A stretch of DNA of 32,000 bases, from NCBI RefSeq assembly GCF_000025945.1, contig NC_006138.1, positions 2,010,001 to 2,042,000 of the forward strand, written 5' to 3'. The stretch comes from Desulfotalea psychrophila LSv54. Its GTDB lineage: Bacteria; Desulfobacterota; Desulfobulbia; Desulfobulbales; Desulfocapsaceae. Made by a program: the position numbers and the translations under genes. The notes beneath the pieces are model-generated. The model searched no databases, had not been told where the DNA came from, and was given only the letters and a program-made list of their open reading frames with translations. Positions 3,861-26,198 of this stretch are shown piece by piece; positions within the stretch are counted from its first letter, which is position 1, and every line of letters begins with the position of its first letter.

Positions 3861-5024
3861 TTAATGGTTAAATACTAACAGTATTTGCATTCCCTTGCCG
3901 GCGAAGCTGTTGTTTGTTGCCTGATCCTGCGAGGTCAGTGGTTGCTCGGGATTGGAGAAGAGACTCACGTTTAACTGCCATTCATCATAGGTTCGCTGCC
4001 AGGTGATAAATGGTGACCAATAACTTTCCTGCCAGTCATAGTAGTTAATGGCCACCAGGGTATCGAGGATACCAAGGGGGTAGGTAACTGACAGTGCTGA
4101 GATGGCCTGTCTTTTTTCGTTGCCGAAGGATTTCTTTGACCATCTCCCTTCAAGATGTTCGCCAAGGACATGTAGGCCGTTACCAAGGTCAAAGGTGTAG
4201 TCCATCCCCACGGTTAAAAGTCTCTGATAGGGCAGTTCCACTGCCTCCAGATCCTGACGAGTCAGGCTGGCTTCAAACCAGAGACCTGCGCCCAGATCCC
4301 ATTTTCCATCAAGTCCTAAACGATCTTCTGCAAAGATGGGGAGTGTCTGTCCTGTGGTCTGGGAGAAAAAATCTTTGCCATTTACCCATCTATGATCATA
4401 GGAGAGAGCTATTTCACCGGCGAGGAGAGTGAGCTGGGCTCGTCCGCCATATTCAACCCGCCTCTTCTCCGTGGGCATGGTCTCCCAGCCCTTCAGGTCA
4501 TGGTTGCCGTAGAGCAACCAGAGCCAGATATTGGCATTGTTAGGGAAATAGTATCTGCCCAGTAGGCCATAGACCCCATCGGTCAGCTGCTGAGGGTCGC
4601 GTGGATCAAGGGTGTCGAACCAGCGCAGGGGTCTGAGCAGGGTGGCCGAGCCGAAGCTGATTTTCTGCAGACCTGCGCGCAACTCGTATTGGTTGGCTGC
4701 AAAGCGCAACCAGAGGCGGTAGGGATCTAGGGTAGCATCCTCCTGACTGCCCCCGCCCAGATGCTTTGCCCACTGGGCATTGATCGCAGCCTCCGCACTG
4801 AGTTTATAGTTCTCTGTAAGTGCCTTCTGCCAGGAGAGTTCAGGGATGTATTGCATCCCGAATTGGCTACTATTCTCGCTCGCTATGAGCCAGGTCGATG
4901 CCTGACCGGAGAAATCAACTGTCCCGGCCTGGGCTATTTGGTTCCAGGCAAGGAGTAGGGTGCTGACCAGAAGCCAGCCAAGGGCTTTTCCTTTAAAAGG
5001 ATATCGTTGAAATAGGGTGGACAT
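3861..5024 (-). CDS. Secreted protein, predicted outer-membrane beta-barrel (uncharacterised)
   Basis: I prefer the internal ATG at 5022-5024 (MSTLFQRYPFKGKALGWLLVSTLLLAWNQIAQA = signal peptide), which is preceded by AGGTGA 5 nt upstream. The tracked ORF start at 5075 has no RBS. The mature part is rich in alternating aromatic/polar beta-strand-like stretches (YGLLGRYYF, IWLWLLYGN, LTVGMDYTFDL). It is the first gene of the ABC cluster. I cannot name its family. Confidence 0.55.
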   Translation of the reverse strand: MSTLFQRYPFKGKALGWLLVSTLLLAWNQIAQAGTVDFSGQASTWLIASENSSQFGMQYIPELSWQKALTENYKLSAEAAINAQWAKHLGGGSQEDATLDPYRLWLRFAANQYELRAGLQKISFGSATLLRPLRWFDTLDPRDPQQLTDGVYGLLGRYYFPNNANIWLWLLYGNHDLKGWETMPTEKRRVEYGGRAQLTLLAGEIALSYDHRWVNGKDFFSQTTGQTLPIFAEDRLGLDGKWDLGAGLWFEASLTRQDLEAVELPYQRLLTVGMDYTFDLGNGLHVLGEHLEGRWSKKSFGNEKRQAISALSVTYPLGILDTLVAINYYDWQESYWSPFITWQRTYDEWQLNVSLFSNPEQPLTSQDQATNNSFAGKGMQILLVFNH

Positions 5025-5277
5025 TGATTCACCTGTTGCATCTTGACGGAGATCATGGTGGCAGATCATCTCCAACCTTGCCGCGAATATTTTGAAGGGC
5101 TACTCTAAGCCTATCTTTTCTGAATTAATAGAACAAGTGCGACCCTGCTATGAGCTGGCAGAGAGGAGGAAAAAGAGGCGGGTGGAAGGATGAATCTGGT
5201 AGGTCGAGCCCGTCGGCTATTGATCACGTCGGGATAAGAAGCTGGTCTGGCCCTGTTCTCTCGCTGCCCTCTGCTCT

Positions 5278-6198
5278 TTATTTTGGCATCTGGTTTGAAT
5301 CAGCCATCACTGTTCCGTCAAATAGTTCAGGATATTTTTCTTTCATACAGGATGGGCAAATTCCATGGCTGAACTTTGCTTCGGAATGGTCTGAAATGAA
5401 CTTTTCCAGTTGATTCCAATAGCCCCGGTCGTCCCTGATCTCTTTGCAGTGCATGCAGATGGGGATTATTCCGCTCAGGCTCTTGACCTCAGCCAGAGCA
5501 TCTGTAAGTTCATTGACGGTTCTCAGTAGTTTTTTTCTGGAGAGTGTCAGCTCTGTTTCCAGGCGCTGACTGTTGAGCATGATCCAGCTAATGCCAATCC
5601 CAACCTCATAGATGGTGAGTTCTAAAAAATAGAGCTGATGGCTGCTTCCGGCGTTAAGAAGTCTCTCCTCTGGAGCGAGGAACCATGAGGCCGCACGGGT
5701 GATTATAAAGAGGGCGTCAATGAGATAGAGTGAGGCGATCGCTGTGTGTAGATTTTTGTTTTCCTTCGTTTTGCTTCTGTAAAATTGCCTACTGATCATG
5801 ATGGCAAATGCTGTTATGGGAATAGAGAAAAACAGGCTGCGTAGTACGATGTCATTTTTGCTGAGAGATAAATAGGCGAAGATAGGGAGCGCTATAAGAG
5901 GCAGGCAGTAGTAGCGTCGTTTAAGTCTCTGGTTATGGGTAAATTGTCGGGCAGCATCAAGACGGAGCACCGCGGTAAGAAAGAATAAGAAGTTCGGTAA
6001 AATGGAGCTGAGCCAAAGCGGTATCTGTCCCCGAAGTATCATGGGGATATAGGCAAGTGCTGCAAGGAAAATGGAGAGGAGGAGGGCCTCATAGCCGGAA
6101 TAGGTTTTATAGTTCAGTCTGTAAAAGAGCAGGGCGAAGGCCATAAAGAAGGCTATTCCCATATTGCAGACCATGAGTGTTTTTATATCTAAAGCCAT
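5278..6198 (-). CDS. 7-TM receptor fused to a coiled coil and a C-terminal Cys4 'IRDDxGYW / FSHGICPxC' module
   Basis: About seven hydrophobic helices occupy the first 210 aa or so. A coiled coil follows (SQRLETELTLSRKKLLRTVNELTDALAEVKSL). The C-terminus is IPICMHCKEIRDDRGYWNQLEKFISDHSEAKFSHGICPSCMKEKYPE (CxxC...CxxC). No kinase, GGDEF, EAL, HD-GYP or DNA-binding motif is visible. Confidence 0.75.
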   Translation of the reverse strand: MALDIKTLMVCNMGIAFFMAFALLFYRLNYKTYSGYEALLLSIFLAALAYIPMILRGQIPLWLSSILPNFLFFLTAVLRLDAARQFTHNQRLKRRYYCLPLIALPIFAYLSLSKNDIVLRSLFFSIPITAFAIMISRQFYRSKTKENKNLHTAIASLYLIDALFIITRAASWFLAPEERLLNAGSSHQLYFLELTIYEVGIGISWIMLNSQRLETELTLSRKKLLRTVNELTDALAEVKSLSGIIPICMHCKEIRDDRGYWNQLEKFISDHSEAKFSHGICPSCMKEKYPELFDGTVMADSNQMPK

Positions 6199-7254: not shown

Positions 7255-7827
7255 TCAGCCCTTGTCACTCTTCCACGAGTTCCACTCTTTTTTGCTTAAT
7301 TTGCCATCTTTATTTGCATCAGCTTCACGGATAATGCGCTCGGCATTTAATGGATAACTGGTTGTGATCTCTGAGCGCATAATGGTCTGGTCGCCATCCT
7401 TGTCTATTGCTACGAAGCCCTTGGCAAAGCGAACTCTCTCCATCTGATAGTATATTGCGGTTCTTTTTTTGCCACTTTCCAGATAGTAGATAGACATGGT
7501 CTGTGGGCTTGTGAATTGTCCTCTGGCAAAGCCTTCCATCTCTGCAAAGTAAAGACTGGTGCCATCGACACCGATAACGCCGGAGAAAGCTTCTTTGACA
7601 ACAGAGCTTTTTTTGCCGAACCAGAGTTTTTCTCCTGAAAAGAGGGGCCCTTCCTGCTTATTGATAACAAAGACAGCCTTTCCTGTCTTGGTCTCCCCTT
7701 TTGGATTCAGTTTTGTCGCCATACCACCCCATGTACCCCGTACCTCCGGGTAGTTGGTCGCAAAAACGGCAGAACCGAGAAAAAACTGACATAGAACAAT
7801 GATACCGATGATCTTTTTCATAGACAC
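7255..7827 (-). CDS. Secreted protein with C-terminal EF-hand pair (Ca2+-binding type)
   Basis: The signal peptide is MSMKKIIGIIVLCQFFLGSAVFA. Two EF-hand-like loops are present, DKDGDQTIMRSE and DANKDGKLSKKE. A GGAGAG RBS lies 6 nt upstream. Confidence 0.75.
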   Translation of the reverse strand: MSMKKIIGIIVLCQFFLGSAVFATNYPEVRGTWGGMATKLNPKGETKTGKAVFVINKQEGPLFSGEKLWFGKKSSVVKEAFSGVIGVDGTSLYFAEMEGFARGQFTSPQTMSIYYLESGKKRTAIYYQMERVRFAKGFVAIDKDGDQTIMRSEITTSYPLNAERIIREADANKDGKLSKKEWNSWKSDKG

Positions 7828-8014: not shown

Positions 8015-9034
8015 TCAGGGCAATGTTTCAGCTAACATTGGCAGGTCAATAGCTGAGCGCCAACAGTTTCTTCCTGCATTTTTGGCCGCATAGAGGCGGG
8101 CATCGGCCACGCTTAGGAGGGTATTCAACTCAATATCTGCCTTGGGGATAACAGAGGAGACGCCAAGGCTAATTGTCAGTAATCCCTGTGGCTTATTGCG
8201 GGGATGGCTCACCTGAAGCCCGAGGACCTCATTTCTCATTCTTTCAGCTACATGTTCAGCCCCCTTTAGATCAGTATCGGGAAGAATAACAACAAACTCT
8301 TCTCCACCATAACGGGCAACCCTGTCCACGTGTCTCTTGACCGATTTGCATAGAGCATTGGCCACGGCCTTGAGGGCATTATCCCCGACAAGATGGCCAA
8401 AGCTATCGTTATATGCCTTGAAATTATCAACATCAATTAACAAAAGAGAGAGCTCTGAACCCAGGCGAAGGCTTCGCTGTAACTCCTCCTGGTATATCTC
8501 ATCGAAATATCTCCTGTTTAACAGGCCGGTCAAGCCATCCCGGGTTGACAGGAGGGTGAGCTGTTCATTTGTCTCCTCCAACTGTTGCTGGAGCTCTTCA
8601 AGCTCACAGAGACGATTGTCAAGTTCGATAGATTTTTTTTCAAGTTCTTCCTTGTGTTGATATAATTCAAGGAAAACTCCAATCTTACCCTTGAGAATAA
8701 CGGGTTCCAGTGGTTTGAAAAGATAGTCCACAGCTCCTGAATCATAACCTTTGAATATTTGTGCCTTTTCTTTATGTTCGGCGGTCACAAATATTATGGG
8801 AATGTTTTTGGTGTTTTTGTTGCACCGCATAAGTTCAGCTACCTCGTAGCCATCCATCCCTGGCATCTGTACATCGAGGAGAACAAGGGCAAAATCATGG
8901 TCAAGGGTTGCAGCCAGGGCCGCATTCCCTGAGGTGGCCTTGACTAGTTCTATCTCTGCATTGTCGATAAGTGATTCCAGGACCAAGAGGTTTTCCGGCC
9001 TGTCATCAACTATAAGAATTTTTATCTGTGTCAT
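8015..9034 (-). CDS. Response regulator with GGDEF output (diguanylate cyclase)
   Basis: The REC domain is visible (ILIVDDRPENL...LLDVQMPGMDGYEV...FKP). A coiled coil links it to a GGDEF domain with the active-site motif RYGGEEF. An RxxD I-site (RHVD) lies 5 residues upstream of that motif. Confidence 0.92.
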   Translation of the reverse strand: MTQIKILIVDDRPENLLVLESLIDNAEIELVKATSGNAALAATLDHDFALVLLDVQMPGMDGYEVAELMRCNKNTKNIPIIFVTAEHKEKAQIFKGYDSGAVDYLFKPLEPVILKGKIGVFLELYQHKEELEKKSIELDNRLCELEELQQQLEETNEQLTLLSTRDGLTGLLNRRYFDEIYQEELQRSLRLGSELSLLLIDVDNFKAYNDSFGHLVGDNALKAVANALCKSVKRHVDRVARYGGEEFVVILPDTDLKGAEHVAERMRNEVLGLQVSHPRNKPQGLLTISLGVSSVIPKADIELNTLLSVADARLYAAKNAGRNCWRSAIDLPMLAETLP

Positions 9035-9037
9035 TTT

Positions 9038-9610
9038 TTACTTTAGGGAGTCAATAAATTTCAAAAAAGGGGCAATTTCTTCAAGGATCAGGATATGGTC
9101 TGCATTGGTTTTTGCCAAGGCCGCCCGGGGCATTATATCGATAGCCGCTGTTTCCGGGGACTGGACAATGGTAAGCCCCCCATTTTTATAAATATCATTC
9201 AGGCCTGCAGCTCCGTCAGAATTGGCGCCAGTGAGAATGATACCTATGAGCTCGTCGCAGTAGGCGGCGGCAGCCGTTTGAAACAGACGGTCTATTGAGG
9301 GTCGGGAAAAATTCACCCGTTCATCCGCAGACAGGGCAATCGTCCGTTCCTCTTCGAGCAAAAGATGATAGTTCGGTGGGGCAAAATAGATAGTTCCCGG
9401 AGCAATAGGCTCCTTGTCATGAGCCTCTACCACGGTCAGCGAGCAGCACTCCTTGAAGAGGGGCACTAAATAGCTCTCTGGTTCATTGCCGATATGCTGA
9501 ACAATCAGGATGGGTGTTTGGAAATCTGCTTCTAGCTGTGATAATATCTGCTTTAGAGCATGAATGCCACCGGCCGAAGCACCTATAACAATTGCACTAT
9601 ACCTCTTCAT
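9038..9610 (-). CDS. cheB: CheB-type protein-glutamate methylesterase, catalytic domain only (no receiver domain)
   Basis: 190 aa. The Ser-His-Asp context is conserved (IGASAGG, LIVQHI, LTGANSDG). The ORF starts directly at the catalytic domain. Its stop lies 3 nt before the ATG of the GGDEF regulator. Confidence 0.85.
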   Translation of the reverse strand: MKRYSAIVIGASAGGIHALKQILSQLEADFQTPILIVQHIGNEPESYLVPLFKECCSLTVVEAHDKEPIAPGTIYFAPPNYHLLLEEERTIALSADERVNFSRPSIDRLFQTAAAAYCDELIGIILTGANSDGAAGLNDIYKNGGLTIVQSPETAAIDIMPRAALAKTNADHILILEEIAPFLKFIDSLK

Positions 9611-9624: not shown

Positions 9625-10470
9625 CTAGGGCTTTAAACGTCTTTTGCGGTATATTTTTTCTCGGCCGGCCACTGCCTCAAAACTATCTGCTATCTTTGAA
9701 AATTGTATGCTCTCTTTTGATCCCAAACAGAGAAAACCACCCGGGCAGAGACTGTCGCAAAACAGCTGTAACACCTTTTCCTGCAGGTCTCGGTTAAAGT
9801 AGATCAACACATTTCGACAAAAAATAACATGCATTTCACCGAAAATGCCATCGGATACCAAATTATGGGAAGAAAATAGAACACGTTCTCTCAGGGAGCT
9901 TCTCAGTATCACATTGCTGTCATCGGCTGTATAGTAATCTGAAAAGTCATTTTTACCGCCGGATTTTATATAGTTAGAGGTGTACTCTCGTGCTACATCA
10001 AGGGGGTAGATGCCTTTGCGAGCTTTTTTGAGAATAAGTTCATTGAAATCAGTTGCATAGGTCTGGCTTCTTCTCTTCATGTCCTCCTCTTCCAGAAGAA
10101 TCGCCATTGAGTATACCTCCTGTCCGGCGGAACAGCCTGCATGCCAAATTTTGATGAAGGGATAGGTCAGCAAATGGGGGACAACAATATCTCTTACCGC
10201 CTTGTAAAACCAAGGATCTCTGAACATTTCCGTGACGTTAATCGAGAGATCTATCAGTAATTTTTTAAAGAACTCTTCCTCGTAGATAAGCTTATGCTGC
10301 ATCTCGGAAAAAGTTGTAAGGCCTGACAAAAGACGTCGGTGTTCCAGGCGTCTCTTGGTATGTGTGCCTGCATAATCCCGAAAATCATAACCATACTTTT
10401 GAAAAACAGCCTCGAGAAGCAGGGTGATTTCCAAGCGCTCATTTTCTATTTTTTCAGACGAGACACTCAT
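9625..10470 (-). CDS. cheR: CheR-type protein-glutamate O-methyltransferase
   Basis: I prefer the ATG at 10468-10470 (MSVSSEKIENERLEITLLLEAVFQKYGYDFRDY...), 1 nt after the kinase stop codon (10472-10474). The N-terminal 28 aa of the tracked ORF overlap the kinase and look non-coding. The SAM-binding signature IWHAGCSAGQEVYSMAILL and the downstream FCRNVLIYF motif are present. Confidence 0.87.
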   Translation of the reverse strand: MSVSSEKIENERLEITLLLEAVFQKYGYDFRDYAGTHTKRRLEHRRLLSGLTTFSEMQHKLIYEEEFFKKLLIDLSINVTEMFRDPWFYKAVRDIVVPHLLTYPFIKIWHAGCSAGQEVYSMAILLEEEDMKRRSQTYATDFNELILKKARKGIYPLDVAREYTSNYIKSGGKNDFSDYYTADDSNVILRSSLRERVLFSSHNLVSDGIFGEMHVIFCRNVLIYFNRDLQEKVLQLFCDSLCPGGFLCLGSKESIQFSKIADSFEAVAGREKIYRKRRLKP

Positions 10471-10471
10471 A

Positions 10472-13400
10472 TCAGTACAACCATACCCGCAACATTGAGA
10501 TGAGCTTGTCAGCATCCACAGGCTTGGCCAAATAATCACTGGCTCCGGCCTCAATACACTTACTTCGATCGCCCTTCATGGCCTTTGCGGTTAAGGCTAT
10601 TATGGGTAATTTTTTGTGCTGTATATTTTTGCGGATCTCCTGCATAGCCTCATAGCCATCCATTCGTGGCATCATTATATCCATTAAAACAGCATCAAAA
10701 TGGTCCTGCTCCTTTAATTTCTCAAGGCACTCAATACCGTCTCTTGCCACAACGATATTAATACCTCGTTCCTCTAGAACACTAGAAAGGGCAAAGACAT
10801 TGCGCATATCATCGTCAACAAGGAGGATCTTTCGACCTTTTAAAACAGCCTCCTTGTTGTGAATAAGCTTAAGCATCTGCTGTTTTTCTTCGGGTAAGTC
10901 TGCCTCGACCCTATGCAGAAAAAGGGCTGATTCGTCCAGCAGTCTCTCCGGTGACTTTACGCCTTTGACAATAATCGTTTCAGCATATTTATTGAGCTGT
11001 GCCTCTTCGGTTTGGGTAAGATCACGGCCCGTATAGATAATAATAGGAAGCCTGTAGAGAGATTCGCTTTGTCTGATTTTCTCCAGGAGTTCAAAGCCAG
11101 ACATATCTCCCAGGCCAAGATCAAGAATCATGCAATCATAGCGTTCTCTGTTCAGCTCAAGGATTGCTCCTGCCCCGGAATCAACGGCGGTGGTTTTAAC
11201 ATCAGAATTACCAATTAACTCTATGATGCTCTCACGTTGAATCTTGTCATCTTCCACAAGGAGTAGTCGCTTTACCGATCTTGAGATGACGTTTTCAAGC
11301 TTTGCTAAGGTCTCTTCGACTTTTTCCATGGATACAGGCTTTGTTAGGTAGCCGATGGCTCCCATGCGCATGGCATCCATGGAGCTGTCGGAGGCGGACA
11401 TAAAGTGAACCGGAATATGACGCAGTTTCGAATTATCCTTGAGACGCTCCATAACTGTCCAGCCATCAATACCTGGCAGGCCAATATCAAGTATTATGGC
11501 ACTGGGGGTATAATGATCTGCCAGAGCTAAGCCTGTTTCTCCGTCACTTGCCAAAATACAGGCAAAGCCACGATCCCTGCCTATATCCCGAAGTACCCGT
11601 GAAAAGTTTTCGTCATCTTCAATGATGAGCAGACTTTTGCTGTCACTGTTTATCTGCCCTCTATCGTCCTCTATGTCAACAGATGCTTTATTGGTTATAG
11701 GGCAAATAGTCTCTTCTTTAGAGGGGGGCGTTTTTTTAATTTCTTTGCGAGCAGGCTGTTTCTCGCCGTCTTCAGTTTCAAGCTTTTCCTCAGGGGTATC
11801 TGTTGCAATAGCCTGGTTGTTCAGAGGTAGTGTTATCCTAAAGGTGCTTCCTTCATCCTCAACAGAGCTGAGGGTGATAAAACCGCCCAACAGTTTAGTC
11901 AGCTCCTTGGATATGGAGAGTCCAAGTCCCGTTCCTCCGTATTTCCTGCTGGTGGAGCCATCTACCTGTTGGAAGGCTTCAAAGATATTTTGCTGCTGTG
12001 CCTGCGGTATGCCAATGCCATCATCTTTAACAGCAAAAACAATGGCCTTCTGTCCCTCAAGTCTTGTGTTCAGGAGTTGCTCTGCCGGAGCTGGCTCGAT
12101 TTCCAGGGAGACAGAGCCTTGCAGGGTAAACTTAAAGGAGTTTGTTATCAGATTACGTAGTACCTGCTGTAATCTCTGCGAATCTGTTTTTAGGGTCTGT
12201 GGTAACTGGGGGTTGAGAGTGATATCAAAGGATATACCTTTGTCGTGGGCCAGATCCTTATACAGCCTGTGCAGGTCAGCTTCAATTCGCTTGAAGGGAA
12301 TTTCTTCAATTATCAGCTCAACCTTACCCGCCTCCACCTTTGACAGATCAAGAATATCATTGATCAGGTTGAGTAACTCTGCCCCGGAGGAGTGGATTGC
12401 CCCTGCCGATTCAACCTGTTTATCGCTGAGGTTGCCTGCTTTATTGGTCGAAAGCAGTTGGGATAAGATAAGTATACTGTTAAGGGGCGTTCGGAGCTCA
12501 TGGGACATATTTGCCAGGAATTCTGACTTATATTTGCCGGATGTTTCCAGCTCGTCAACTTTTCCTTCGACAATCTTTTGGGCATCCAGCAGTTCAATGT
12601 TCTTGGTAGAAATTTCTTTTCTCTGTTTTTCCAGTGCCCCGGTTCTTTGCTGGAGTTCCTCGTTGGCAACCCGTAACTCCTCCTGTTGGGCCTGAAGTTC
12701 TGCCTCAGATTGCTTTAAGGCGCGGGTCTGTTCTTCAAGCTCCTCATTGGTAATCCGTAACTCTTCCTGTTGGGCTTGGAGCTCTGTCTCCGACTCTTTA
12801 AGGGCCCTTGCCTGGCTTCCCAGTGCCCTGTTAGAGGATGCCAGTTCTCGTTGTTGCTCCTGGGATTGGTCAAGAAGCGTAGCTATGCGCATTCTTGATT
12901 GGGCAGCATTGAGAATTACAGCAAGATTAGCAGAGCTTTGCTCAATAAAATCTCTCTGTATTTTTGTAAACCTGTTAATGGAGGCAAAGAGTATTACCCC
13001 GACAATATCACCCTCTATGGCGAGAGGCGCTGCAACGAAATAGCCGGGGATTTCTTCACCAATACCATAATTAATAGCAGGGGCATCCTCGACCAGGTTC
13101 GAGAAAGAGAGGAGCTCATTTTCTAAAGCTGCCTGGCCCACTAGGCCTTCACCGAATTTAAAGGTGCTGAAGTTGCCCTTTCTGTCGGAAAAGGCATAGG
13201 AGGAGCGTAGCTCTAGTATGTGGCCATCGTTGAGGTAAATCGCTCCCATGGCAATATTCATATGTTTAACAAAAAAGCGTATGGCTCTTTTGCTCAATTC
13301 ATCGAGGGCTAGGTCTCCGCGCAGGTCGTTGTCAAGAGATTCTCGTCCCGACTTCATCCAGTCAATCTTTTGCAGTTTTTCTGACATATTGTTCAGTGAA

Positions 13401-14548
13401 GCTGCCAGGGTGCCAAGCTCATCATTTCGTTCTATCTCAAGTCTTTCTCCGAGTTTGCCATGGGAGATATTATTGGCAAATTCAATTTCGGCAATAATAG
13501 GACGGGTGAAATTTCTTGAGAGTAACCAGGCAATAATACTTATAAAAAAGATACATACTACAACAACAAGGCCGAACTTTTTGTAAATTGCCCGGATTGG
13601 CGCAGTGATCTCATGGTTGTCAATTTTTGATATTAAATACCAGTCCAGCCCATCTATTTCGAGCAGGTTATAGGCTACAAGTACCTCTGTATCGGCGCTG
13701 TCGCTACACATACTGTGTCCGCCTGCCAGGCCAGCTTTCTCTGCATCAGCCCAGTAACTGAGGTTCTTGGTAAAGGTATAGCCGACAACAAATTTACCAT
13801 CCCCCATTGTTCTCAGGTTACTGCGTAATTCAAATTTACCAGTTTGATCTTGTGGGGTAATTATATATGATTCTCCTGTCTCCCCCATTCCGCGAGTAGA
13901 TTCAATAATCTGGGAGATGAAATCTGCGCTAAACCGTATCAGGATAACGCCTATTTTATGGTTATCCTCTCCAAAAACAGGATAGCCTATGAAGGCCATT
14001 TGCTTGCTACTATCATGGAAAAAAGGTTCGAAATCGGTGATCACAGTCCCCTCTGCGCCCAAGGCCTTCCGCCATGTTTTGGCCAGAACGGTGTCCTTGT
14101 ATTGGCGACTATCCAGCCGCTTCCATACGACTGCTTTTGTGTTCAGGGAAAATAAAACATCACCATGCTCCGCATCAATCAGATAGATATCTTCGTAATT
14201 ATAGCGCTTGGTATAGTTTGCCAGGTGTTCAGTAATGCCCTGAATTTTTTTACTAAAGGTAGCAAGTCCTTCGGGTTGACTGTGGTATTTCTTTAGAGCG
14301 GTGAAGGTGTTATACGTATCTTTGGAACTGGCAAAGACCTGAATGGCGGCAAGATCATTTACGAAATGATCTTCTATCTGGTCTCTGTGGATGTCTTGTA
14401 TTGATAAGAGCTTATTCGTTGCCTCTTGTACCAGAGAGGTTTCGGTCCATTGGCTGTATAAAAAGCCAATAATAATCAGGGGAAGAACCCCAGTTAAAAG
14501 AAAAAGAAACTGTAGCTTTAATCTAATTGGAACATTACTCAAGTGCAC
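10472..14548 (-). CDS. Hybrid sensor histidine kinase: TM-Cache-like periplasmic domain-TM-HAMP-GAF-long coiled coil-HisKA-HATPase-REC-REC-REC
   Basis: 1358 aa.
- Two TM helices flank a periplasmic region of about 300 aa with Cache-like strings (YEDIYLIDAEHGDVLFS; GESYIITPQDQTG).
- A HAMP domain follows TM2, then a GAF-like domain (GEGLVGQAALE...).
- The H-box is FLANMSHELRTPLNSI, and the N/G boxes are RNLITNSFKFT and DDGIGI...GGTGLGLSISK.
- Three receiver domains each keep the acceptor Asp and Lys context (ILDIGLPGIDG..TKP; ILDLGLGDMSG..VKG; LMDIMMPRMDG..AKP).
- The start is GTG at 14546-14548, with GGGGAAG just upstream. A TTG two codons later is an alternative start. Confidence 0.92.
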   Translation of the reverse strand: MHLSNVPIRLKLQFLFLLTGVLPLIIIGFLYSQWTETSLVQEATNKLLSIQDIHRDQIEDHFVNDLAAIQVFASSKDTYNTFTALKKYHSQPEGLATFSKKIQGITEHLANYTKRYNYEDIYLIDAEHGDVLFSLNTKAVVWKRLDSRQYKDTVLAKTWRKALGAEGTVITDFEPFFHDSSKQMAFIGYPVFGEDNHKIGVILIRFSADFISQIIESTRGMGETGESYIITPQDQTGKFELRSNLRTMGDGKFVVGYTFTKNLSYWADAEKAGLAGGHSMCSDSADTEVLVAYNLLEIDGLDWYLISKIDNHEITAPIRAIYKKFGLVVVVCIFFISIIAWLLSRNFTRPIIAEIEFANNISHGKLGERLEIERNDELGTLAASLNNMSEKLQKIDWMKSGRESLDNDLRGDLALDELSKRAIRFFVKHMNIAMGAIYLNDGHILELRSSYAFSDRKGNFSTFKFGEGLVGQAALENELLSFSNLVEDAPAINYGIGEEIPGYFVAAPLAIEGDIVGVILFASINRFTKIQRDFIEQSSANLAVILNAAQSRMRIATLLDQSQEQQRELASSNRALGSQARALKESETELQAQQEELRITNEELEEQTRALKQSEAELQAQQEELRVANEELQQRTGALEKQRKEISTKNIELLDAQKIVEGKVDELETSGKYKSEFLANMSHELRTPLNSILILSQLLSTNKAGNLSDKQVESAGAIHSSGAELLNLINDILDLSKVEAGKVELIIEEIPFKRIEADLHRLYKDLAHDKGISFDITLNPQLPQTLKTDSQRLQQVLRNLITNSFKFTLQGSVSLEIEPAPAEQLLNTRLEGQKAIVFAVKDDGIGIPQAQQQNIFEAFQQVDGSTSRKYGGTGLGLSISKELTKLLGGFITLSSVEDEGSTFRITLPLNNQAIATDTPEEKLETEDGEKQPARKEIKKTPPSKEETICPITNKASVDIEDDRGQINSDSKSLLIIEDDENFSRVLRDIGRDRGFACILASDGETGLALADHYTPSAIILDIGLPGIDGWTVMERLKDNSKLRHIPVHFMSASDSSMDAMRMGAIGYLTKPVSMEKVEETLAKLENVISRSVKRLLLVEDDKIQRESIIELIGNSDVKTTAVDSGAGAILELNRERYDCMILDLGLGDMSGFELLEKIRQSESLYRLPIIIYTGRDLTQTEEAQLNKYAETIIVKGVKSPERLLDESALFLHRVEADLPEEKQQMLKLIHNKEAVLKGRKILLVDDDMRNVFALSSVLEERGINIVVARDGIECLEKLKEQDHFDAVLMDIMMPRMDGYEAMQEIRKNIQHKKLPIIALTAKAMKGDRSKCIEAGASDYLAKPVDADKLISMLRVWLY
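12638..12805. repeat. Tandem 84-bp (28-aa) duplication inside the kinase coiled coil
   Basis: Unit 1 (12722-12805) encodes ALKESETELQAQQEELRITNEELEEQTR. Unit 2 (12638-12721) encodes ALKQSEAELQAQQEELRVANEELQQRTG. 20 of 28 residues are identical, the two units are in frame, and a third unit begins (ALEKQ...). By eye the DNA units match at roughly three quarters of positions. Confidence 0.85.
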
Positions 14549-14736: not shown

Positions 14737-14774
14737 AAAAAAAAGCCCTTAACTCAAAGAAGAGCTAAGGGCTT
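14737..14774 (-). terminator. Rho-independent terminator after tRNA-Phe
   Basis: The minus-strand transcript reads AAGCCCUUAgcucuucuuugaguUAAGGGCUU followed by UUUUUUUU. That is a 9-bp stem plus an 8-U tract, starting 20 nt past the tRNA 3' end. Confidence 0.75.
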
Positions 14775-14793
14775 AATATCTTTTACCAATGAA

Positions 14794-14869
<76 letters not shown>

Positions 14870-14933: not shown

Positions 14934-15773
14934 TTATTTCTTTTTATGCAGGGATAAGCCGCCCAAATCCAAGTCAAAATCAAGGTCGGCGTTCATATTG
15001 ACGCTACCATCGGGATTTAGGGAGTTGTTCGCTTTTCTGTCTACTGCTCCGGAGGAATCAGTGTCCGATGTTATATCATCGGCAAAGAGTGTATCCAGAT
15101 CCAGATCGTCTAAATCAAAACTTGCATGCCCATTGGACGGGGCTGGCTCTGAGGAGGACTCATCAAATGCTATCTCTTCATCAAGGTCAAAAAAGTCGTC
15201 CTCGGCCTCACCATTACCTGTGTAGTCCGGTTCAAGAAGGTCGTCGAGCTCTGTCAGACCGTCGGATGGTGGTGTCTCCATGTCTTGCGCAGGCCTTGTC
15301 TCTTCATCTGCAAAAAAGCCTTCGCTATCAGGGGGCAGATCAAATTCGTCGTCTGCCTTGCTATCGTCCTCATCCTCTCTTGCGGGGGGCTCTGGCTGCC
15401 CTTCTTCTGTCGATGCTTCGCTGGGCATTTCTGGCAATAAAAAATCAAAGTCAATCTCTTCATCCTCATCATCGAGGGGGAAGAGATCATCGTCAGTTTT
15501 ATCGGTGAGAAGAATATCAAGCTCGCTATCTACAGCCTCTTCGTTAAGAGCTCCGTTCTCGGCAGGAGAGTCATTGTTGGAGGCGTCGTCGGAGGCGTCG
15601 TCGGAGGTATCGTCGGAGGTATCGTCGGAGGTATCTACCTGTAAAAAAGTGGGGCTGGCGGCGTTGAATGTTCCGCCGCTAGCAGCAATGACTTCGTTGG
15701 AGAAATCTTTTTGACACTGTTTACAAGAGGTCAAATGATCAAATGAAATATACCCACACTTAGGACAACGCAT
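14934..15773 (-). CDS. Zinc-ribbon protein with a very long acidic low-complexity tail
   Basis: I prefer the ATG at 15771-15773 (MRCPKCGYISFDHLTSCKQCQKDF = CxxC-x10-CxxC), which has a GGAG-containing RBS (AGAGGAGA) about 4-5 nt upstream. About 250 aa dominated by D/E/S/T/P follow, with recurring [DE]-F-D-[LF]-type motifs (EIDFDFLL, DEFDLPP, DFFDLDEE, ASFDLDDLDLDTLF, DLDFDLDLGGLSL). The C-terminus is basic (HKKK). Confidence 0.7.
   Translation of the reverse strand: MRCPKCGYISFDHLTSCKQCQKDFSNEVIAASGGTFNAASPTFLQVDTSDDTSDDTSDDASDDASNNDSPAENGALNEEAVDSELDILLTDKTDDDLFPLDDEDEEIDFDFLLPEMPSEASTEEGQPEPPAREDEDDSKADDEFDLPPDSEGFFADEETRPAQDMETPPSDGLTELDDLLEPDYTGNGEAEDDFFDLDEEIAFDESSSEPAPSNGHASFDLDDLDLDTLFADDITSDTDSSGAVDRKANNSLNPDGSVNMNADLDFDLDLGGLSLHKKK
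15579..15635. repeat. 12-bp tandem repeat, about 4.75 copies, in frame within the acidic protein gene
   Basis: The plus strand reads GGAGGCGTCGTC GGAGGCGTCGTC GGAGGTATCGTC GGAGGTATCGTC GGAGGTATC. On the coding strand this encodes DDTS-DDTS-DDTS-DDAS-DDAS. Confidence 0.9.
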
Positions 15774-15819
15774 AAAATCTCCTCTTGAAAAAACAGACAT
15801 GCCCATGATCATTAGATGA

Positions 15820-23913: not shown

Positions 23914-24495
23914 TTATTTTTTTCCTTCACATTCTGGGCAAATGGTTTTTATAAAACGATCTTCACCATTTTTTTCTATAAGTTCAAGGTAGTCATGCCA
24001 TGTTCCCTCGTCAATATCTTCAATTTTGTGGCATTTTTCGCAGACGGTGAGGCTGTCCTGCAGGGTGTCGAGTTGATTGATGGCATTTTTTAATTCAGTG
24101 ACGGTGGAGGCAAGCATGTCCTGACTGCGAACAAGGCGATCGGCAACACGTACTCTGGCCCGCAATTCATCACTGTTAAAGGGTTTGGTGATATAGTCAT
24201 CGGCGCCGGCATCAAAACCAAGCAGTATATCATTTTTGCTGCCGTGAGCGGTTAGCAGTATAATATATGGAGGGTTTTCGCTCTCCTGTTCCCTCAGCCT
24301 TTTGCATACTTCCAGTCCATCAACTTCGGGCATTTCCCAGTCAATTATGGCAATCCTAGGTGCCTCTCCACGACCAAAAAGCTCCATGGCCTCTTTTCCA
24401 TCCTTAGCTTCCAGAACGTCGTAGCCCCAATTTTCTAAACTTACCTGCACCATTAGTCTTGTTACAAGTTCATCTTCTGCCACAAGCACTTTCAT
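23914..24495 (-). CDS. Response regulator: REC + coiled coil + divergent CxxC...CxxC tail
   Basis: I prefer the ATG at 24493-24495 (MKVLVAEDELVTRL...), with an AAGGTGA RBS 7 nt upstream. The REC motifs are IIDWEMPEVDG and ITKPF. The C-terminus is VCEKCHKIEDIDEGTWHDYLELIEKNGEDRFIKTICPECEGKK. Confidence 0.8.
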   Translation of the reverse strand: MKVLVAEDELVTRLMVQVSLENWGYDVLEAKDGKEAMELFGRGEAPRIAIIDWEMPEVDGLEVCKRLREQESENPPYIILLTAHGSKNDILLGFDAGADDYITKPFNSDELRARVRVADRLVRSQDMLASTVTELKNAINQLDTLQDSLTVCEKCHKIEDIDEGTWHDYLELIEKNGEDRFIKTICPECEGKK

Positions 24496-24821
24496 AGTCG
24501 TCACCTTGTCGTTAAATAAAAAATAATATCCACCATACAATACAGAAGACCTTACAGTAAAAAGGTTCTATTGTTCCATGTTTTTTTGCTGAGGCCTATT
24601 TATCTTCATAGACTAAGAGTAGGTCTGGTAAGCCCTGTTCTCTTCCCCCAAAAGATGGGAAAATGGGGTAGGGGAAAAATATATATTTTTAAATTCAGTT
24701 GAATAGCGGTTAATTTTTTTGCTACCCTTAGCTTACAGTAGAATGCATTTTTCAGGATTTGACCATCCGCAATAGATAGGGAGGATGGAGCAAACCAACC
24801 TTTCACCTTGGTACATTTTTT

Positions 24822-26159
24822 ATGAAAACCTTTTGTATAAAAAAAGGTCTTAATATTCCCATTAAAGGTGTTGCTGGGCCGCAAATACGGCAGGGAAAAG
24901 TTGTAGATAAAATAGCTTTGATTGCCGATGATTATGTTGGCCTGAGGCCAACTATGAAGGTTGAGGTTGGTGATAAGGTTATCTGCGGTCAACTTCTCTT
25001 TACCGATAAGCAAACGCCCGGTATTCGCTTCACCGCCCCGGCAGCAGGCACGATCAGCGCAATTAACAGGGGGGGGAAACGTAAATTTCTCTCTCTGGTG
25101 ATTGATCTCGCCAAGGATCTTGCCTGTACATTTCTTCACCCTGAAGATGTTTATACGTCTGAAAGTATTGGTGATATTCTTATTCAGTCTGGACTGTGGA
25201 CATGCTTTCGGACCCGGCCCTATGGCAAGATTCCCGGCATAGAGACAAGCCCCCATTCACTTTTTATTACGGCAAGTGATAGTGCACCTCTGGCTCCCTT
25301 GCCCCAGAGCATTATCGCTGAATACAGCGATGAGTATAGTGAGGGACTCAGGCAGCTTCGGGCATATTTCTCCTGTCCCATATATTACTGTACCAATCAG
25401 GAGGCGTTGCTCCCCGCCGAGGAACTGGAGGGGCTTGATTACAACTGTTTTCTGGGGCCTCATCCGGCAGGACTTGCCTCGACTCATATTCATTTTCTTG
25501 ACTCCGCCAGCGAAGATAAGACCGTCTGGAATATATCCTATCAGGATGTTATTTCCATTGGTTATCTCTTTCGTACGGGCCGCCTGATGACAGAGAGGAT
25601 CATTGCCATTACCGGTCCGTCAGCTCGTCAGCCCTCTCTTCTGCGCACCCATATAGGGGCCGATATTCATCAACTCTGCCGTGATGAGGGGTCAGGGGCC
25701 GGGGTGCGAACCATCTCCGGCTCTGTCCTTGCGGGCCGACAGGTAACAGATGAAGAACACTTTTTAGGCCGTTACCACAATCAAATATGTATGCTCGAGG
25801 AGAGTGCGGACAGATCACCTTTTAATTGGGCAATGCCGGGTAGAGATAAATTTTCCGCTCGGCCCATTTTCGCCTCCCTCTTCTCTAAGGGCAAGACGTT
25901 TTCAATGAAGACAGCACTCTATGGAGGTTTTCGGGCAATTTATCCTCTGGGCAGCCATGAGCAGGTCATGCCTCTTGATATCCTGGCGACCCCATTTTTG
26001 CAGGCCATATCAAATCATAATACCAGTAAGGCAAAGGATCTCGGTTGTCTGGAACTGATAGAAGAAGATCTAGCGCTCTGTAGCTTTGTTTGCCCGGGAA
26101 AAAACGAATTTGCTAGTGTTCTTCGTGGCGTATTGGCTAGCATAGAACAGGGCGATTAA
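24822..26159 (+). CDS. nqrA: Na+-translocating NADH:quinone oxidoreductase subunit A
   Basis: 445 aa. The N-terminus IKKGLNIPIKG is typical of NqrA, and this is the first gene of a colinear nqrABCDEF set. No Shine-Dalgarno sequence lies near the ATG. Confidence 0.88.
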   Translation: MKTFCIKKGLNIPIKGVAGPQIRQGKVVDKIALIADDYVGLRPTMKVEVGDKVICGQLLFTDKQTPGIRFTAPAAGTISAINRGGKRKFLSLVIDLAKDLACTFLHPEDVYTSESIGDILIQSGLWTCFRTRPYGKIPGIETSPHSLFITASDSAPLAPLPQSIIAEYSDEYSEGLRQLRAYFSCPIYYCTNQEALLPAEELEGLDYNCFLGPHPAGLASTHIHFLDSASEDKTVWNISYQDVISIGYLFRTGRLMTERIIAITGPSARQPSLLRTHIGADIHQLCRDEGSGAGVRTISGSVLAGRQVTDEEHFLGRYHNQICMLEESADRSPFNWAMPGRDKFSARPIFASLFSKGKTFSMKTALYGGFRAIYPLGSHEQVMPLDILATPFLQAISNHNTSKAKDLGCLELIEEDLALCSFVCPGKNEFASVLRGVLASIEQGD

Positions 26160-26198
26160 GGACTTAGGATAAATCATATAACTGAGATAGAGGAAGAG

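What the first reader, a model, noticed from the sequence alone, without database searches (positions are those of the whole stretch)
12638..12805. Duplicated 28-aa 'ELQAQQEELRxxNEEL' segment in the kinase coiled coil: candidate methylation/deamidation site
Two in-frame 84-bp units lie between the GAF domain and the HisKA H-box. They encode ALKESETELQAQQEELRITNEELEEQTR and ALKQSEAELQAQQEELRVANEELQQRTG, with 20 of 28 residues identical, and a third unit begins. The units are full of Glu/Gln pairs (QQEE, NEELEEQ) in heptad-like register. This resembles the 'EELQSxNEELxxxNEEL' coiled coil I recall sitting next to the CheR domain in CheBR-fusion kinases. It is not the classical MCP methylation consensus (E-E-x-x-A-S/T), so any methylation here would be a distinct recognition mode. 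The position immediately N-terminal to the dimerisation/His-phosphotransfer helix is where a change in helix charge could bias kinase output.
Basis: partly seen in the sequence, partly recalled or inferred. Interest (0 to 1): 0.65.

Follow-up and report, generated by a model that had tools for sequence, protein, structure and literature searches.

The report
Methyl-accepting-like repeats in a sensor kinase
A sensor kinase carries two near-identical 28-residue acidic helix repeats just before its phosphorylated histidine, and across many bacterial phyla such repeats sit next to genes for a chemotaxis-type methyltransferase and methylesterase, so this kinase family is probably tuned by reversible methylation the way chemotaxis receptors are, though no modification has been shown.

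Summary
On the minus strand, residues 582-609 and 610-637 of a 1358-aa hybrid histidine kinase are tandem 28-aa units, 20/28 identical. No shuffle out of 20,000 reached this. They lie between the GAF domain and the phospho-His.

The unit (consensus ALKESEAELQAQQEELRVTNEELEEQT) is almost invariant in 120 orthologues and occurs in at least 374 protein clusters. Its spacing from the His is quantised in heptads.

The operon is kinase-cheR-cheB(catalytic only)-REC-GGDEF, with no MCP, CheA or CheW in the window.
- Loci found through the motif alone had cheR beside the kinase in 66 of 73 informative species.
- Loci found through CheR alone had a motif kinase in 41 of 44 decisive cases.
- All 120 CheB-CheR fusion proteins examined carry a related heptad array (EELQSTN).

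The only [EQ][EQ] pairs conserved along the whole kinase lie in these repeats. [quoted passage not shown]

Best reading, about 0.6: a methyl-accepting adaptation segment built on an S-helix-type linker.

Against it: methylation is untested, there is no E/Q interchange, and 7 loci lack adjacent cheR/cheB. I found no description in the searchable literature. I rate it a new variant of a known kind.

The parts
10472..14548 (-). Hybrid sensor histidine kinase, 1358 aa: dCache_1, HAMP, GAF, long coiled coil, HisKA, HATPase_c, three receiver domains
   Evidence: ORF and translation; Pfam domains; 120 full-length orthologues at 39-65% identity
13628..14272 (-). Periplasmic dCache_1 sensor (aa 93-307). 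Other family members have 4HB_MCP_1, CHASE3, HBM, sCache or PAS here
   Evidence: Pfam
13370..13522 (-). HAMP domain (aa 343-393)
   Evidence: Pfam; found in 31 of 36 diverse family members
12911..13309 (-). GAF domain (aa 414-546)
   Evidence: Pfam; found in 36 of 36 family members
12806..12889 (-). Decayed upstream repeat unit (aa 554-581, ...QEQQRELASSNRALGSQAR). The acidic pairs are lost here; most orthologues keep QQEELRVTNEELEEQT
12722..12805 (-). Repeat unit 1 (aa 582-609) ALKESETELQAQQEELRITNEELEEQTR. Candidate methyl-accepting pairs E595/E596 and E602/E603
12638..12721 (-). Repeat unit 2 (aa 610-637) ALKQSEAELQAQQEELRVANEELQQRTG. Candidate pairs E623/E624 and E630/E631. Its end (QRT; family consensus EERT) fits the S-helix 'ERT' signature
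12533..12637 (-). DHp-proximal coil (aa 638-672). It is conserved as its own segment and aligns with the BarA S-helix region. It is not a third repeat
12326..12529 (-). HisKA / DHp domain. Phospho-acceptor His683 is the codon at 12500..12502, 60 residues after the start of the last EELxxxNEEL
11819..12184 (-). HATPase_c catalytic domain (aa 789-910)
10475..11680 (-). Three receiver (REC) domains (approximate span; best Pfam stretch aa 1241-1353). The protein ends in the family-conserved ...RVWLY
9625..10434 (-). cheR: protein-glutamate O-methyltransferase homologue (CheR_N + CheR). The ORF can be read from TTG at 10554, overlapping the kinase end. The ATG at 10434 (MEITLLLEA...) matches the orthologues
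   Evidence: Pfam; PDB 5FTW E 5e-27; clade alignment
9038..9610 (-). cheB: methylesterase/deamidase catalytic domain only (190 aa, no receiver domain). The GASAGG, VQH and SDG motifs of the Ser-His-Asp triad are present
   Evidence: Pfam; PDB 3SFT E 3e-25 with alignment
8015..9034 (-). REC-GGDEF response regulator (diguanylate cyclase), the likely output of the operon
   Evidence: Pfam; NCBIfam PleD-like; REC-GGDEF present in 27 of the 66 cheR-positive loci

Best explanation
The two 28-residue units are the adaptation segment of a methyl-accepting hybrid histidine kinase.

The kinase resembles a chemoreceptor at its front end: a periplasmic sensor of a type used by chemoreceptors, then HAMP. 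Instead of an MCP signalling domain it continues through GAF and one long helix into its own DHp/catalytic core. That helix is presumed to form a parallel dimeric coiled coil.

The helix is an S-helix-type linker whose N-terminal 28 residues have been multiplied. Each unit displays invariant Glu-Glu pairs (QQEELRVT-NEELEEQT) on a non-core face.

The co-transcribed CheR would methylate one or more of these glutamates using S-adenosylmethionine. The most likely target is the second Glu of E-E-L-R-V/I-T. The receiver-less CheB would remove the methyl groups.

Neutralising charge on this very acidic stretch (net -9 over 56 residues) would change coil stability or register. That change would pass directly into the DHp helix 45 residues downstream and shift the balance between kinase and phosphatase activity. 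Phosphorylation of REC-GGDEF, and so c-di-GMP synthesis, would follow.

Because CheB has no receiver domain, any feedback would come from the enzymes preferring one signalling state of the substrate. The result would be sensory adaptation or memory in a classical two-component system.

Shown: the repeat, its conservation, its fixed heptad phase to the His, the two-way gene linkage with a dedicated CheR/CheB clade, and the shared motif in CheB-CheR fusions.

Inferred: that the repeat is the substrate, which residue is modified, and the effect on the kinase.
For: 1. Conservation. The unit consensus ALKESEAELQAQQEELRVTNEELEEQT is nearly invariant in 120 orthologues. In 36 family members from many phyla (24-52% identical overall), E595, E596, N601, Q621, E623, N629 and E631 are invariant, on a par with the kinase catalytic motifs.
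2. In 91 representative clusters, QQEEL and NEEL of unit 1 are near-invariant. These columns were not constrained by my selection. Non-core positions of the following coil are free to vary: 2.97 bits against 1.6-2.0 bits in the units.
3. The only [EQ][EQ] pairs conserved in at least 80% of members along the whole roughly 1350-aa protein lie in the two units.
4. Phase. The last EELxxxNEEL starts 60 aa before the His in 98 of 128 representatives with an H-box, and 53, 46 or 88 aa before it in most of the others. Copy number varies from about 1.5 to 4 in 28-aa steps.
5. AlphaFold2 predicts one continuous helix over aa 515-670, with pLDDT 84-93 across the units.
6. Forward linkage. Of 80 species loci retrieved by the motif alone, cheR is present in 66 of 73 informative loci. 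It usually starts within -93 to +210 nt of the kinase stop. cheB is also present in 58.
7. Reverse linkage. Of 80 metagenome loci retrieved by CheR alone, 41 of 44 decisive loci contain a motif kinase. Sixteen more show a kinase C-terminus cut off by the contig end.
8. The MCP hairpin-tip signature occurs in only 4 of 161 sequences (about 2 Mb) and never next to the cheR/cheB pair. There is no MCP, CheA or CheW in the window.
9. Fusion evidence. All 120 CheB-CheR-PAS_10 fusions carry the array QEELKSTNEELQSTNEEL.... hhalign against the kinase repeat gives 93% probability, E 2.4e-7. In L053 such a fusion replaces separate cheR/cheB after the kinase.
10. [quoted passage not shown]
11. CheR and CheB look catalytically intact.
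12. Control. E. coli BarA has a homologous linker without repeats or Glu pairs, and has no cheR/cheB neighbours.
Against: - No modification data exist, and none can be obtained with these tools.
- The expected mark of MCP methylation sites, E/Q interchange between orthologues, is absent. Q12 and Q13 are 92-100% Gln; E14, E15, E21 and E22 are 97-100% Glu. The only notable exchange is E24 to Q in unit 2, at 10%.
- The strict pattern [EQ][EQ]xx[AVSTG][ST] holds in fewer than half of 36 diverse members at any one position.
- Seven loci keep an intact motif with no cheR/cheB within 4-8 kb. Three CheR-clade loci have no kinase nearby.
- The whole region from HAMP to the third receiver domain is co-inherited with cheR/cheB, so gene linkage alone does not single out the repeats.
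- The heptad register is ambiguous. Leu may be at d (continuing the DHp register) or at a (S-helix convention), so how exposed the Glu pairs are is an inference.
- The kinase-linked CheR is no closer to the fusion-protein CheR domain (114 and 96 bits) than to B. subtilis CheR (98 bits).
- Profile similarity between two acidic coiled coils can be inflated by composition.
Confidence: 0.6

Rival explanations
1. The repeats are only a structural, lengthened S-helix coiled-coil linker that passes the GAF/HAMP signal to the DHp. CheR and CheB of the operon act elsewhere, either on another part of the kinase or on another protein.
For: - The segment is homologous to the S-helix region of BarA-type kinases, which work without CheR/CheB.
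- S-helices typically carry negative charge at their b and c positions, and the family consensus of unit 2 (LEERTKAL) fits the ERT signature.
- There is no E/Q interchange.
- Seven loci keep the motif without adjacent cheR/cheB.
- Linkage to cheR/cheB applies to the whole conserved kinase core, not just the repeats.
Against: - A purely structural coil does not explain near-invariant residues at non-core positions while the neighbouring coil varies.
- No other conserved Glu/Gln pair exists in the kinase to serve as a substrate.
- CheB-CheR fusion proteins share this motif with the kinase but not HAMP, GAF or the kinase core.
- MCPs are almost never nearby.
Confidence: 0.22
2. The repeats are a docking or pairing element rather than the modified site. 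They would recruit CheR/CheB, as the NWETF pentapeptide tethers these enzymes to MCPs. Alternatively they would pair as a hetero-coiled coil with the similar coil of CheB-CheR fusion proteins. Catalysis would occur elsewhere or not at all.
For: - A related coil is built into CheB-CheR fusion proteins, where it could simply dimerise or target the enzyme.
- In L053 a fusion protein follows the kinase in place of separate cheR/cheB.
- Strict invariance without E/Q interchange suits a recognition surface.
Against: - The standalone CheR and CheB of this operon have no coiled coil of their own to pair with.
- The Glu-Glu-x-x-small-Thr heptad resembles a catalytic site, not the known tether.
- No other conserved candidate acceptor exists in the kinase.
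Confidence: 0.12
3. The repeat is a chance or recent low-complexity duplication with no specific function.
For: The region is rich in E, Q and L, and its heptad periodicity raises background similarity: heptad-preserving shuffles reach 18/28.
Against: - No shuffle out of 20,000 reaches the observed 21/28.
- Ten synonymous differences between the units show that the duplication is old.
- The two-unit arrangement is conserved across many phyla.
Confidence: 0.02

Closest known systems
Methylation helices of methyl-accepting chemotaxis proteins (for example E. coli Tsr/Tar), substrates of CheR and CheB
   Same: - Glu-Glu pairs recur at heptad spacing on a long coiled-coil helix downstream of a periplasmic sensor and a HAMP domain.
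[quoted passage not shown]
- Dedicated cheR and cheB genes are encoded alongside.
- The family uses sensor types also found in MCPs: dCache, 4HB_MCP, CHASE3, HBM.
   Different: - There is no MCPsignal domain, and no CheA or CheW.
- The helix presumably forms a two-stranded parallel coil that runs straight into the kinase's own DHp, not an antiparallel four-helix hairpin.
- Ala is usually replaced by Val.
- There is no E/Q interchange at the candidate sites.
- CheB lacks its receiver domain.
- Methylation has not been demonstrated.
[quoted passage not shown]
   Same: - A parallel coiled-coil linker sits between a sensor module and the DHp.
- It has an acidic non-core face.
- The family consensus LEERTKAL in unit 2 fits the 'ERT' signature.
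- BarA aligns with unit 2 plus the following segment. BarA, TorS and LetS are the best NCBIfam matches, all below their cut-offs.
   Different: - An S-helix is about 40 residues (5 heptads) and single. Here the N-terminal 28 residues are multiplied 2-4 times, with invariant QQEEL/NEEL that BarA lacks.
- This version is linked to cheR/cheB.
- In the window protein the signature reads QRT.
Coiled coil of CheB-CheR-PAS_10 fusion proteins ('two-component system CheB/CheR fusion protein'), including CheR-...-HisKA fusion kinases
   Same: - They share the core QEEL[KR]xTNEEL. hhalign gives 93% probability with 43% identity over 46 columns.
- The coil is present in 120 of 120 fusions.
- Both are physically tied to CheR/CheB.
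   Different: - In the fusions the unit is a 7-residue EELQSTN array placed after PAS_10. In the example read in full (L136) it is far from the H-box, with PAS domains between.
- In this kinase the unit is 28 residues and sits directly before the DHp.
- CheR and CheB are separate proteins here; none of 149 representatives has them fused.
Wsp-type chemosensory pathways that control a REC-GGDEF cyclase (my own knowledge, not tested here)
   Same: A sensor with methylation-type adaptation enzymes controls a receiver-GGDEF diguanylate cyclase.
   Different: Wsp uses an MCP (WspA), CheW-like proteins and a CheA-like kinase. Here a classical HisKA kinase would itself be the methyl acceptor.

Membership tests
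MCP-type CheR/CheB methyl-accepting site | Adjacent Glu/Gln pair in which the second residue is the acceptor | tested here: met
   E14E15 and E21E22 of each unit are 97-100% Glu. They are the only [EQ][EQ] pairs conserved in at least 80% of members along the kinase.
MCP-type CheR/CheB methyl-accepting site | [quoted passage not shown] | tested here: inconclusive
   Position 18 is Val in 66-78% and Ala in 7-8%. Position 19 is Thr in 58-65% and Ser in 6-14%. The window has EELRIT and EELRVA. The strict pattern holds in fewer than 50% of 36 diverse members.
MCP-type CheR/CheB methyl-accepting site | Several sites at heptad spacing on one face of a coiled-coil helix | tested here: met
   The pairs are 7 apart within a unit and 28 apart between units. 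Leu recurs every 7 residues. A continuous helix is predicted. Exposure depends on the register, which is ambiguous.
MCP-type CheR/CheB methyl-accepting site | Glu/Gln interchange at the sites among orthologues (Gln deamidated by CheB) | tested here: not met
   Q12/Q13 stay Gln and E14/E15/E21/E22 stay Glu. Only E24 of unit 2 shows 10% Gln.
MCP-type CheR/CheB methyl-accepting site | Cognate CheR and CheB encoded with the substrate | tested here: met
   Window operon. Forward test 66 of 73. Reverse test 41 of 44.
MCP-type CheR/CheB methyl-accepting site | Demonstrated carboxyl methylation and demethylation | not testable with these tools
   Needs mass spectrometry or labelled-SAM assays.
Methyl-accepting chemotaxis protein (Pfam MCPsignal, PF00015) | MCPsignal domain with the kinase-control hairpin tip | tested here: not met
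   No PF00015 match in the kinase, nor in its coil even at E up to 10. No hairpin-tip motif in the window.
S-helix (signalling helix) | Parallel coiled-coil module between two signalling domains, typically just upstream of the DHp | tested here: met
   It lies between GAF and HisKA. A continuous helix is predicted. It aligns with the BarA linker. The definition is from PMC1592074.
S-helix (signalling helix) | 'ERT' signature in the central heptad; length about 40 residues (5 heptads) | tested here: inconclusive
   The family consensus of unit 2 ends EERT (Arg 52%, Thr 75%). The window has QRT. Unit 1 has EEQT. The helix is far longer than 40 residues. No S-helix profile was available to score.
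CheB/CheR-fusion kinase family | CheB_methylest and CheR domains in the same polypeptide as the coil | tested here: not met
   No CheR or CheB domain in the window kinase, nor in any of 149 motif-bearing representatives.
CheB/CheR-fusion kinase family | EEL-heptad coiled coil (QEELKSTNEELQSTNEEL...) | tested here: met
   Shared core QEEL[KR]xTNEEL; hhalign 93%, E 2.4e-7.
CheR protein-glutamate O-methyltransferase | CheR_N plus the SAM-binding CheR domain | tested here: met
   PF03705 and PF01739. PDB 5FTW E 5e-27. The score is below the NCBIfam equivalog cut-off, 89 against 435 bits, so this is a divergent clade.
CheB methylesterase/deamidase | Catalytic domain with the Ser-His-Asp triad | tested here: met
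   PF01339, E 1e-57. The GASAGG, VQH and SDG motifs are visible in the alignment to 3SFT. This is motif-level evidence only.
CheB methylesterase/deamidase | N-terminal receiver domain that controls activity by phosphorylation | tested here: not met
   The protein is 190 aa and consists of the catalytic domain only. The same holds in most related loci. In some loci a separate REC gene precedes cheB.

The most novel reading that the evidence does not exclude
A widespread family of classical histidine kinases is itself methyl-accepting. It comprises at least 374 clusters at 50% identity and occurs in Desulfobacterota, Vibrionaceae, Alphaproteobacteria, Clostridia, Bacilli, Bacteroidales, Fusobacteria, Spirochaetes, Nitrospirota, Legionellales and others. 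A dedicated CheR/CheB clade would read an 'EEL-heptad' code (QEEL[RK]xTNEEL) on the linker before the DHp. This would give two-component systems, often ones that control c-di-GMP, the same adaptation and memory that chemotaxis receptors have. The very abundant CheB-CheR fusion proteins would carry the same code as a built-in substrate or target.
Probability: 0.5. Interest if true: 0.85.

Novelty: new variant of a known kind. Interest (0 to 1): 0.72.

Why it matters
Reversible glutamate methylation by CheR and CheB is the textbook mechanism of sensory adaptation, but it is known only on chemoreceptors that control CheA. If these repeats are true methyl acceptors, adaptation has been grafted directly onto an ordinary sensor kinase. 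That would mean a two-component system can reset its sensitivity and respond to changes rather than to absolute levels.

It would also give a function to orphan cheR/cheB pairs that lie away from any chemoreceptor gene. Many such pairs come from Bacteroidales, a group I recall as mostly lacking flagellar chemotaxis (my own knowledge, not tested here). The thousands of uncharacterised CheB-CheR fusion proteins would gain a function too.

The prediction is concrete. It names specific glutamates (E596, E603, E624, E631 and their partners) in a 56-residue segment, which can be tested by mass spectrometry and mutagenesis.

Tried and rejected
- Tandem Repeats Finder on the DNA found nothing. The repeat is visible only in the protein.
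- A word-indexed homologue search with the 56-aa motif alone returned only 2 fragments and wasted one capped search. The exhaustive HMMER scan and a degenerate-pattern genome scan took its place.
- E/Q interchange, the usual mark of methylation or deamidation sites, was tested and not found.
- No solved structure contains the motif; the best PDB E-value was 0.13.
- No Pfam family covers it. There were only sub-threshold coiled-coil matches. For the fusion-protein coil, MCPsignal reached E 0.034, which is not significant.
- NCBIfam has no specific model. All kinase matches fall below their cut-offs.
I found no description of a methylated histidine kinase, of this operon type, or of the motif strings; one search matched 0 papers. 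Wuichet and Zhulin 2010, Alexander and Zhulin 2007, and García-Fontana 2013 were not held. Prior mention in those or in subscription journals therefore cannot be excluded.
- I asked whether the kinase-linked CheR is specifically closer to the CheR domain of the fusion proteins. It is not clearly so: 114 and 96 bits, against 98 bits to B. subtilis CheR.
- I asked whether the upstream 292-aa protein and the downstream EF-hand protein belong to the system. They are not conserved in related loci, so I rejected them.
- A dimer or CheR-complex model could not be made, because only single-chain prediction was available.
Full report
**Observation**

The reported segment lies on the minus strand inside ORF 10472..14548. 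This ORF encodes a 1358-aa hybrid histidine kinase.
- Unit 1 is residues 582-609 (window 12805..12722): ALKESETELQAQQEELRITNEELEEQTR.
- Unit 2 is residues 610-637 (12721..12638): ALKQSEAELQAQQEELRVANEELQQRTG.
- They share 20/28 residues and 60/84 nucleotides.
- Of the 18 differing codons, 10 are synonymous. The duplication is therefore old and maintained at the protein level. Tandem Repeats Finder sees nothing in the DNA.
- The best period-28 self-match in the coil is 21/28. The maximum was 12 in 20,000 residue shuffles and 18 in 20,000 heptad-preserving shuffles.

The supposed third unit (aa 638-665) shares only 6/28 residues. A decayed unit lies upstream instead, at aa 554-581.

**Anatomy**

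Pfam gives this order: dCache_1 (93-307), HAMP (343-393), GAF (414-546), a gap of about 125 residues that holds the repeats, HisKA (674-741, His683), HATPase_c (789-910), and three receiver domains.

Three genes follow on the same strand:
- cheR (9625..10434/10554; CheR_N plus CheR).
- A 190-aa cheB that is the catalytic domain only (9038..9610).
- A REC-GGDEF gene (8015..9034).

A tRNA-Phe gene with a strong terminator lies upstream. The flanking genes are not conserved in related loci. The unit is therefore a four-gene operon.

The rest of the window encodes an ABC transporter, hemerythrin, nadC, valS, enolase, Na+-NQR and other genes. There is no MCP, CheA or CheW.

CheR matches solved CheR structures; the best is B. 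subtilis 5FTW at E 5e-27. CheB matches CheB catalytic domains and shows the GASAGG, VQH and SDG motifs.

**Conservation**

All 120 full-length orthologues (39-65% identity; Desulfobacterota, Vibrio, Shewanella, spirochaetes) carry the unit. Its consensus is ALKESEAELQAQQEELRVTNEELEEQT[RK]. There are between about 1.5 and 4 copies, always added or lost in 28-residue steps. The distance to the H-box is fixed.

An exhaustive HMMER scan of 1.84 billion representatives found 374 clusters with E of 0.001 or better. In the best 149:
- The last EELxxxNEEL starts 60 residues before the His in 98 cases, 53 in 20, 88 in 7, 85 in 2 and 46 in 1. Nearly all of these differ from 60 by whole heptads.
- None has a fused CheR or CheB domain.

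In 36 members from many phyla (24-52% identical overall), the repeat residues E595, E596, N601, L604, L611, Q621, E623, L625, N629, E631 and L632 are invariant. That is the same level as the catalytic glycines. The architecture from HAMP to the last receiver domain is constant. The periplasmic sensor varies among dCache_1, 4HB_MCP_1, CHASE3, HBM, sCache and PAS.

In 91 representatives, QQEEL and NEEL of unit 1 are near-invariant, and my selection did not constrain these columns. Non-core positions of the next coil segment vary freely: 2.97 bits against 1.6-2.0 bits.

Along the whole kinase, the only [EQ][EQ] pairs conserved in at least 80% of members are those in the two units.

AlphaFold2, run on the single sequence, predicts one helix over aa 515-670 with pLDDT 84-93 across the units. 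It shows a break at about S670-G671, just before the DHp helix.

**Linkage to CheR/CheB**

*Forward test.* A degenerate-pattern scan of one genome per species, using only the 56-residue motif, gave at least 407 confirmed loci. The best 80 span Desulfobacterota, Vibrionaceae, Alphaproteobacteria, Clostridia, Bacilli, Bacteroidales, Fusobacteria, Spirochaetes, Nitrospirota, Legionellales, Ignavibacteria and Armatimonadota.
- cheR is present in 66 of 73 informative loci. It usually starts within -93 to +210 nt of the kinase stop.
- cheB, also catalytic-only, is present in 58.
- The output gene is REC-GGDEF, REC-HK-REC or REC-x.
- Seven loci, mostly Bacteroidales, keep an intact motif with no cheR/cheB within 4-8 kb.
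- Some loci have two or three motif kinases in tandem before a single cheR-cheB pair (L047, L050). The enzymes may therefore act in trans.

*Reverse test.* A metagenome scan using only an alignment of these CheR proteins returned 80 loci.
- 41 contain a motif kinase, upstream or downstream of cheR.
- 16 show a kinase C-terminus cut off by the contig end.
- 3 are clear negatives: orphan cheR-cheB, or cheR-cheB-REC-GGDEF.
- 20 are uninformative.

The MCP hairpin-tip signature occurs in only 4 of 161 sequences (about 2 Mb), never next to cheR/cheB.

**Fusion evidence**

- In L053 the motif kinase is followed by a CheB-CheR-PAS_10 fusion protein instead of separate genes.
- All 120 homologues of that fusion carry ...REELQxTREGMQSSQEELKSTNEELQSTNEELQSTNEELTTSKEEMQSMNEELQTVN....
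- L136 encodes CheR-PAS_10-(NEELQS)x5-PAS-HisKA-HATPase-REC next to a standalone cheR-cheB pair.
- Profile-profile comparison of the kinase repeat with the fusion coil gives 93% probability, E 2.4e-7 and 43% identity over 46 columns.

The shared core is QEEL[RK]xTNEEL.

**Relation to known sites and modules**

- The fusion heptad E-E-L-Q-S-T fits it, with Ser in place of Ala.
- The kinase heptad E-E-L-R-V/I-T fits it, with Val or Ile in place of Ala.
- The second heptad of the unit, E-E-L-E-E-Q-T, does not fit.

Leu recurs every seventh residue. If the DHp register is continued backwards, Leu is at position d, and E6/Q13/N20/T27 fall at a. The Glu pairs then sit at b and c.

The S-helix paper uses another convention: Leu at a, with 'ERT' at c, d and e (PMC1592074). 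Under that convention the family consensus LEERTKAL at the end of unit 2 is a textbook S-helix signature, and the Glu pairs fall at f and g. The register is therefore unresolved.

E. coli BarA aligns with unit 2 and the following segment. It has a single degenerate YHEEMQHNIDQAT, no Glu pairs, and no cheR/cheB neighbours. BarA, TorS and LetS are the best NCBIfam matches, all below their cut-offs.

The repeats are thus best seen as a multiplied and specialised N-terminal part of an S-helix.

**What argues against methylation**

- There is no E/Q interchange. Q12 and Q13 stay Gln (92-100%), and the Glu pairs stay Glu (97-100%). Deamidation of QQ is therefore doubtful, and Q13 may be a core residue.
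- The consensus match is partial.
- Exceptions exist in both linkage tests.
- The whole kinase core is co-inherited with cheR/cheB.
- Similarity scores between coiled coils can be inflated by composition.
- No structure, Pfam family or NCBIfam model covers the motif.

**Mechanism proposed**

*Shown:*
- A conserved, phase-locked acidic repeat in the helix that feeds the DHp.
- A dedicated CheR/CheB clade encoded with it.
- The same motif fused to CheB-CheR elsewhere.

*Inferred:*
- CheR methylates the second Glu of EELR(V/I)T in each unit, and possibly also a Glu of NEEL.
- The receiver-less CheB removes the methyl groups.
- Charge neutralisation changes coil stability or register in a segment with net charge -9 over 56 residues and a mostly polar second core layer.
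- This shifts the kinase/phosphatase balance, and with it phosphorylation of REC-GGDEF and c-di-GMP synthesis.
- Feedback comes from the enzymes preferring one signalling state of the substrate, because CheB has no receiver domain.

I put this at about 0.6. The rivals are a purely structural S-helix extension with CheR/CheB acting elsewhere (about 0.22), a docking or pairing element (about 0.12), and chance (about 0.02).

**Novelty**

All ten searches of the held literature, plus targeted reading, found no description of a CheR/CheB-modified histidine kinase, of this operon, or of the motif strings.

Several key chemotaxis-genomics papers were not held, so an earlier passing mention cannot be excluded. 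CheB-CheR fusion proteins are a recognised architecture: they appear in source annotations and in the domain list of Alm et al. 2006.

I rate the finding a new variant of a known kind: MCP-style methylation machinery applied to a classical two-component kinase through an S-helix-derived repeat.

Noticed in passing
window 10475..10489 (-), the C-terminus of the kinase: The kinase family ends almost invariably in ...[LM][LM][RK]VWLY followed by 0-2 residues: 117 of 120 orthologues and 70 of 79 long representatives. An aromatic motif at the extreme C-terminus recalls the NWETF tether that MCPs use for CheR/CheB. The spacing differs, however, and there is no flexible linker. Unexplained.
   Followed up: partly
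window 14743..14869 (-): A tRNA-Phe (GAA) gene at 14794..14869 is followed by a 13-bp-stem intrinsic terminator at 14743..14774, just upstream of the kinase gene. Together they mark the upstream boundary of the four-gene operon.
   Followed up: yes
L053 13210..16167: In a Desulfuromonadaceae genome, the motif kinase is followed by a CheB-CheR-PAS_10 fusion protein with its own EELQSTN array. The usual separate cheR and cheB are absent. This looks like displacement by a non-orthologous gene.
   Followed up: partly
L136 2..3805 and 4523..6023: A CheR-PAS_10-(NEELQS)x5-PAS-PAS-HisKA-HATPase-REC fusion kinase, cut at its N-terminus by the contig end, lies next to a standalone cheR-cheB pair of the kinase-linked clade.
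   Followed up: partly
L051, L061, L067, L068, L077, L078, L118, L120, L123, L129, L131: In Moraxellaceae-type loci the gene order is kinase-cheR-REC-cheB-REC-x. A single-domain receiver gene sits directly before the catalytic-only cheB, as if CheB had been split into two genes.
   Followed up: no
L047 5238..16015; L050 4041..12313: Two or three motif kinases occur in tandem. In L050 they are followed by a single cheR-cheB pair. One enzyme pair may therefore serve several kinases, as in chemotaxis.
   Followed up: no
Orthologues P0010, P0092, P0104, P0107, P0108, P0118: Public sources name several orthologues 'tubulin-specific chaperone A'. This is almost certainly a misannotation driven by the coiled coil.
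   Followed up: no
Precomputed Pfam columns: Accessions PF28019.1 (on P0023, P0027, P0086, P0095, P0098) and PF28016.1 (on most CheB-CheR fusions) are absent from the local Pfam copy. They may be recent models of these coils and should be looked up.
   Followed up: no
window 14934..15812 (-): This ORF encodes a 292-aa protein with an N-terminal CxxC...CxxC zinc-ribbon-like motif followed by an extremely acidic, D/E-rich and probably disordered tail. It has no Pfam or NCBIfam match and is not conserved next to the kinase elsewhere.
   Followed up: partly
window 7255..7827 (-): This ORF encodes a 190-aa protein with a probable signal peptide and a single C-terminal EF-hand. It lies 187 bp downstream of the REC-GGDEF gene and is not conserved in related loci.
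   Followed up: partly
window 12638..12721 (-), aa 633-634: Unit 2 of this organism reads NEELQQRT where the family has NEELEERT. Position 24 of unit 2 is the only acidic column with appreciable Gln (10%), mostly in the closest relatives (NEELQERT). It may be the one site that behaves like an E/Q-interchanging modification site.
   Followed up: partly
window 24822..30632 (+): A complete Na+-translocating NADH:quinone reductase-type operon (nqrA-F-like) lies here, with an orphan receiver-domain gene just upstream on the opposite strand at 23914..24540. It is unrelated to the finding.
   Followed up: no
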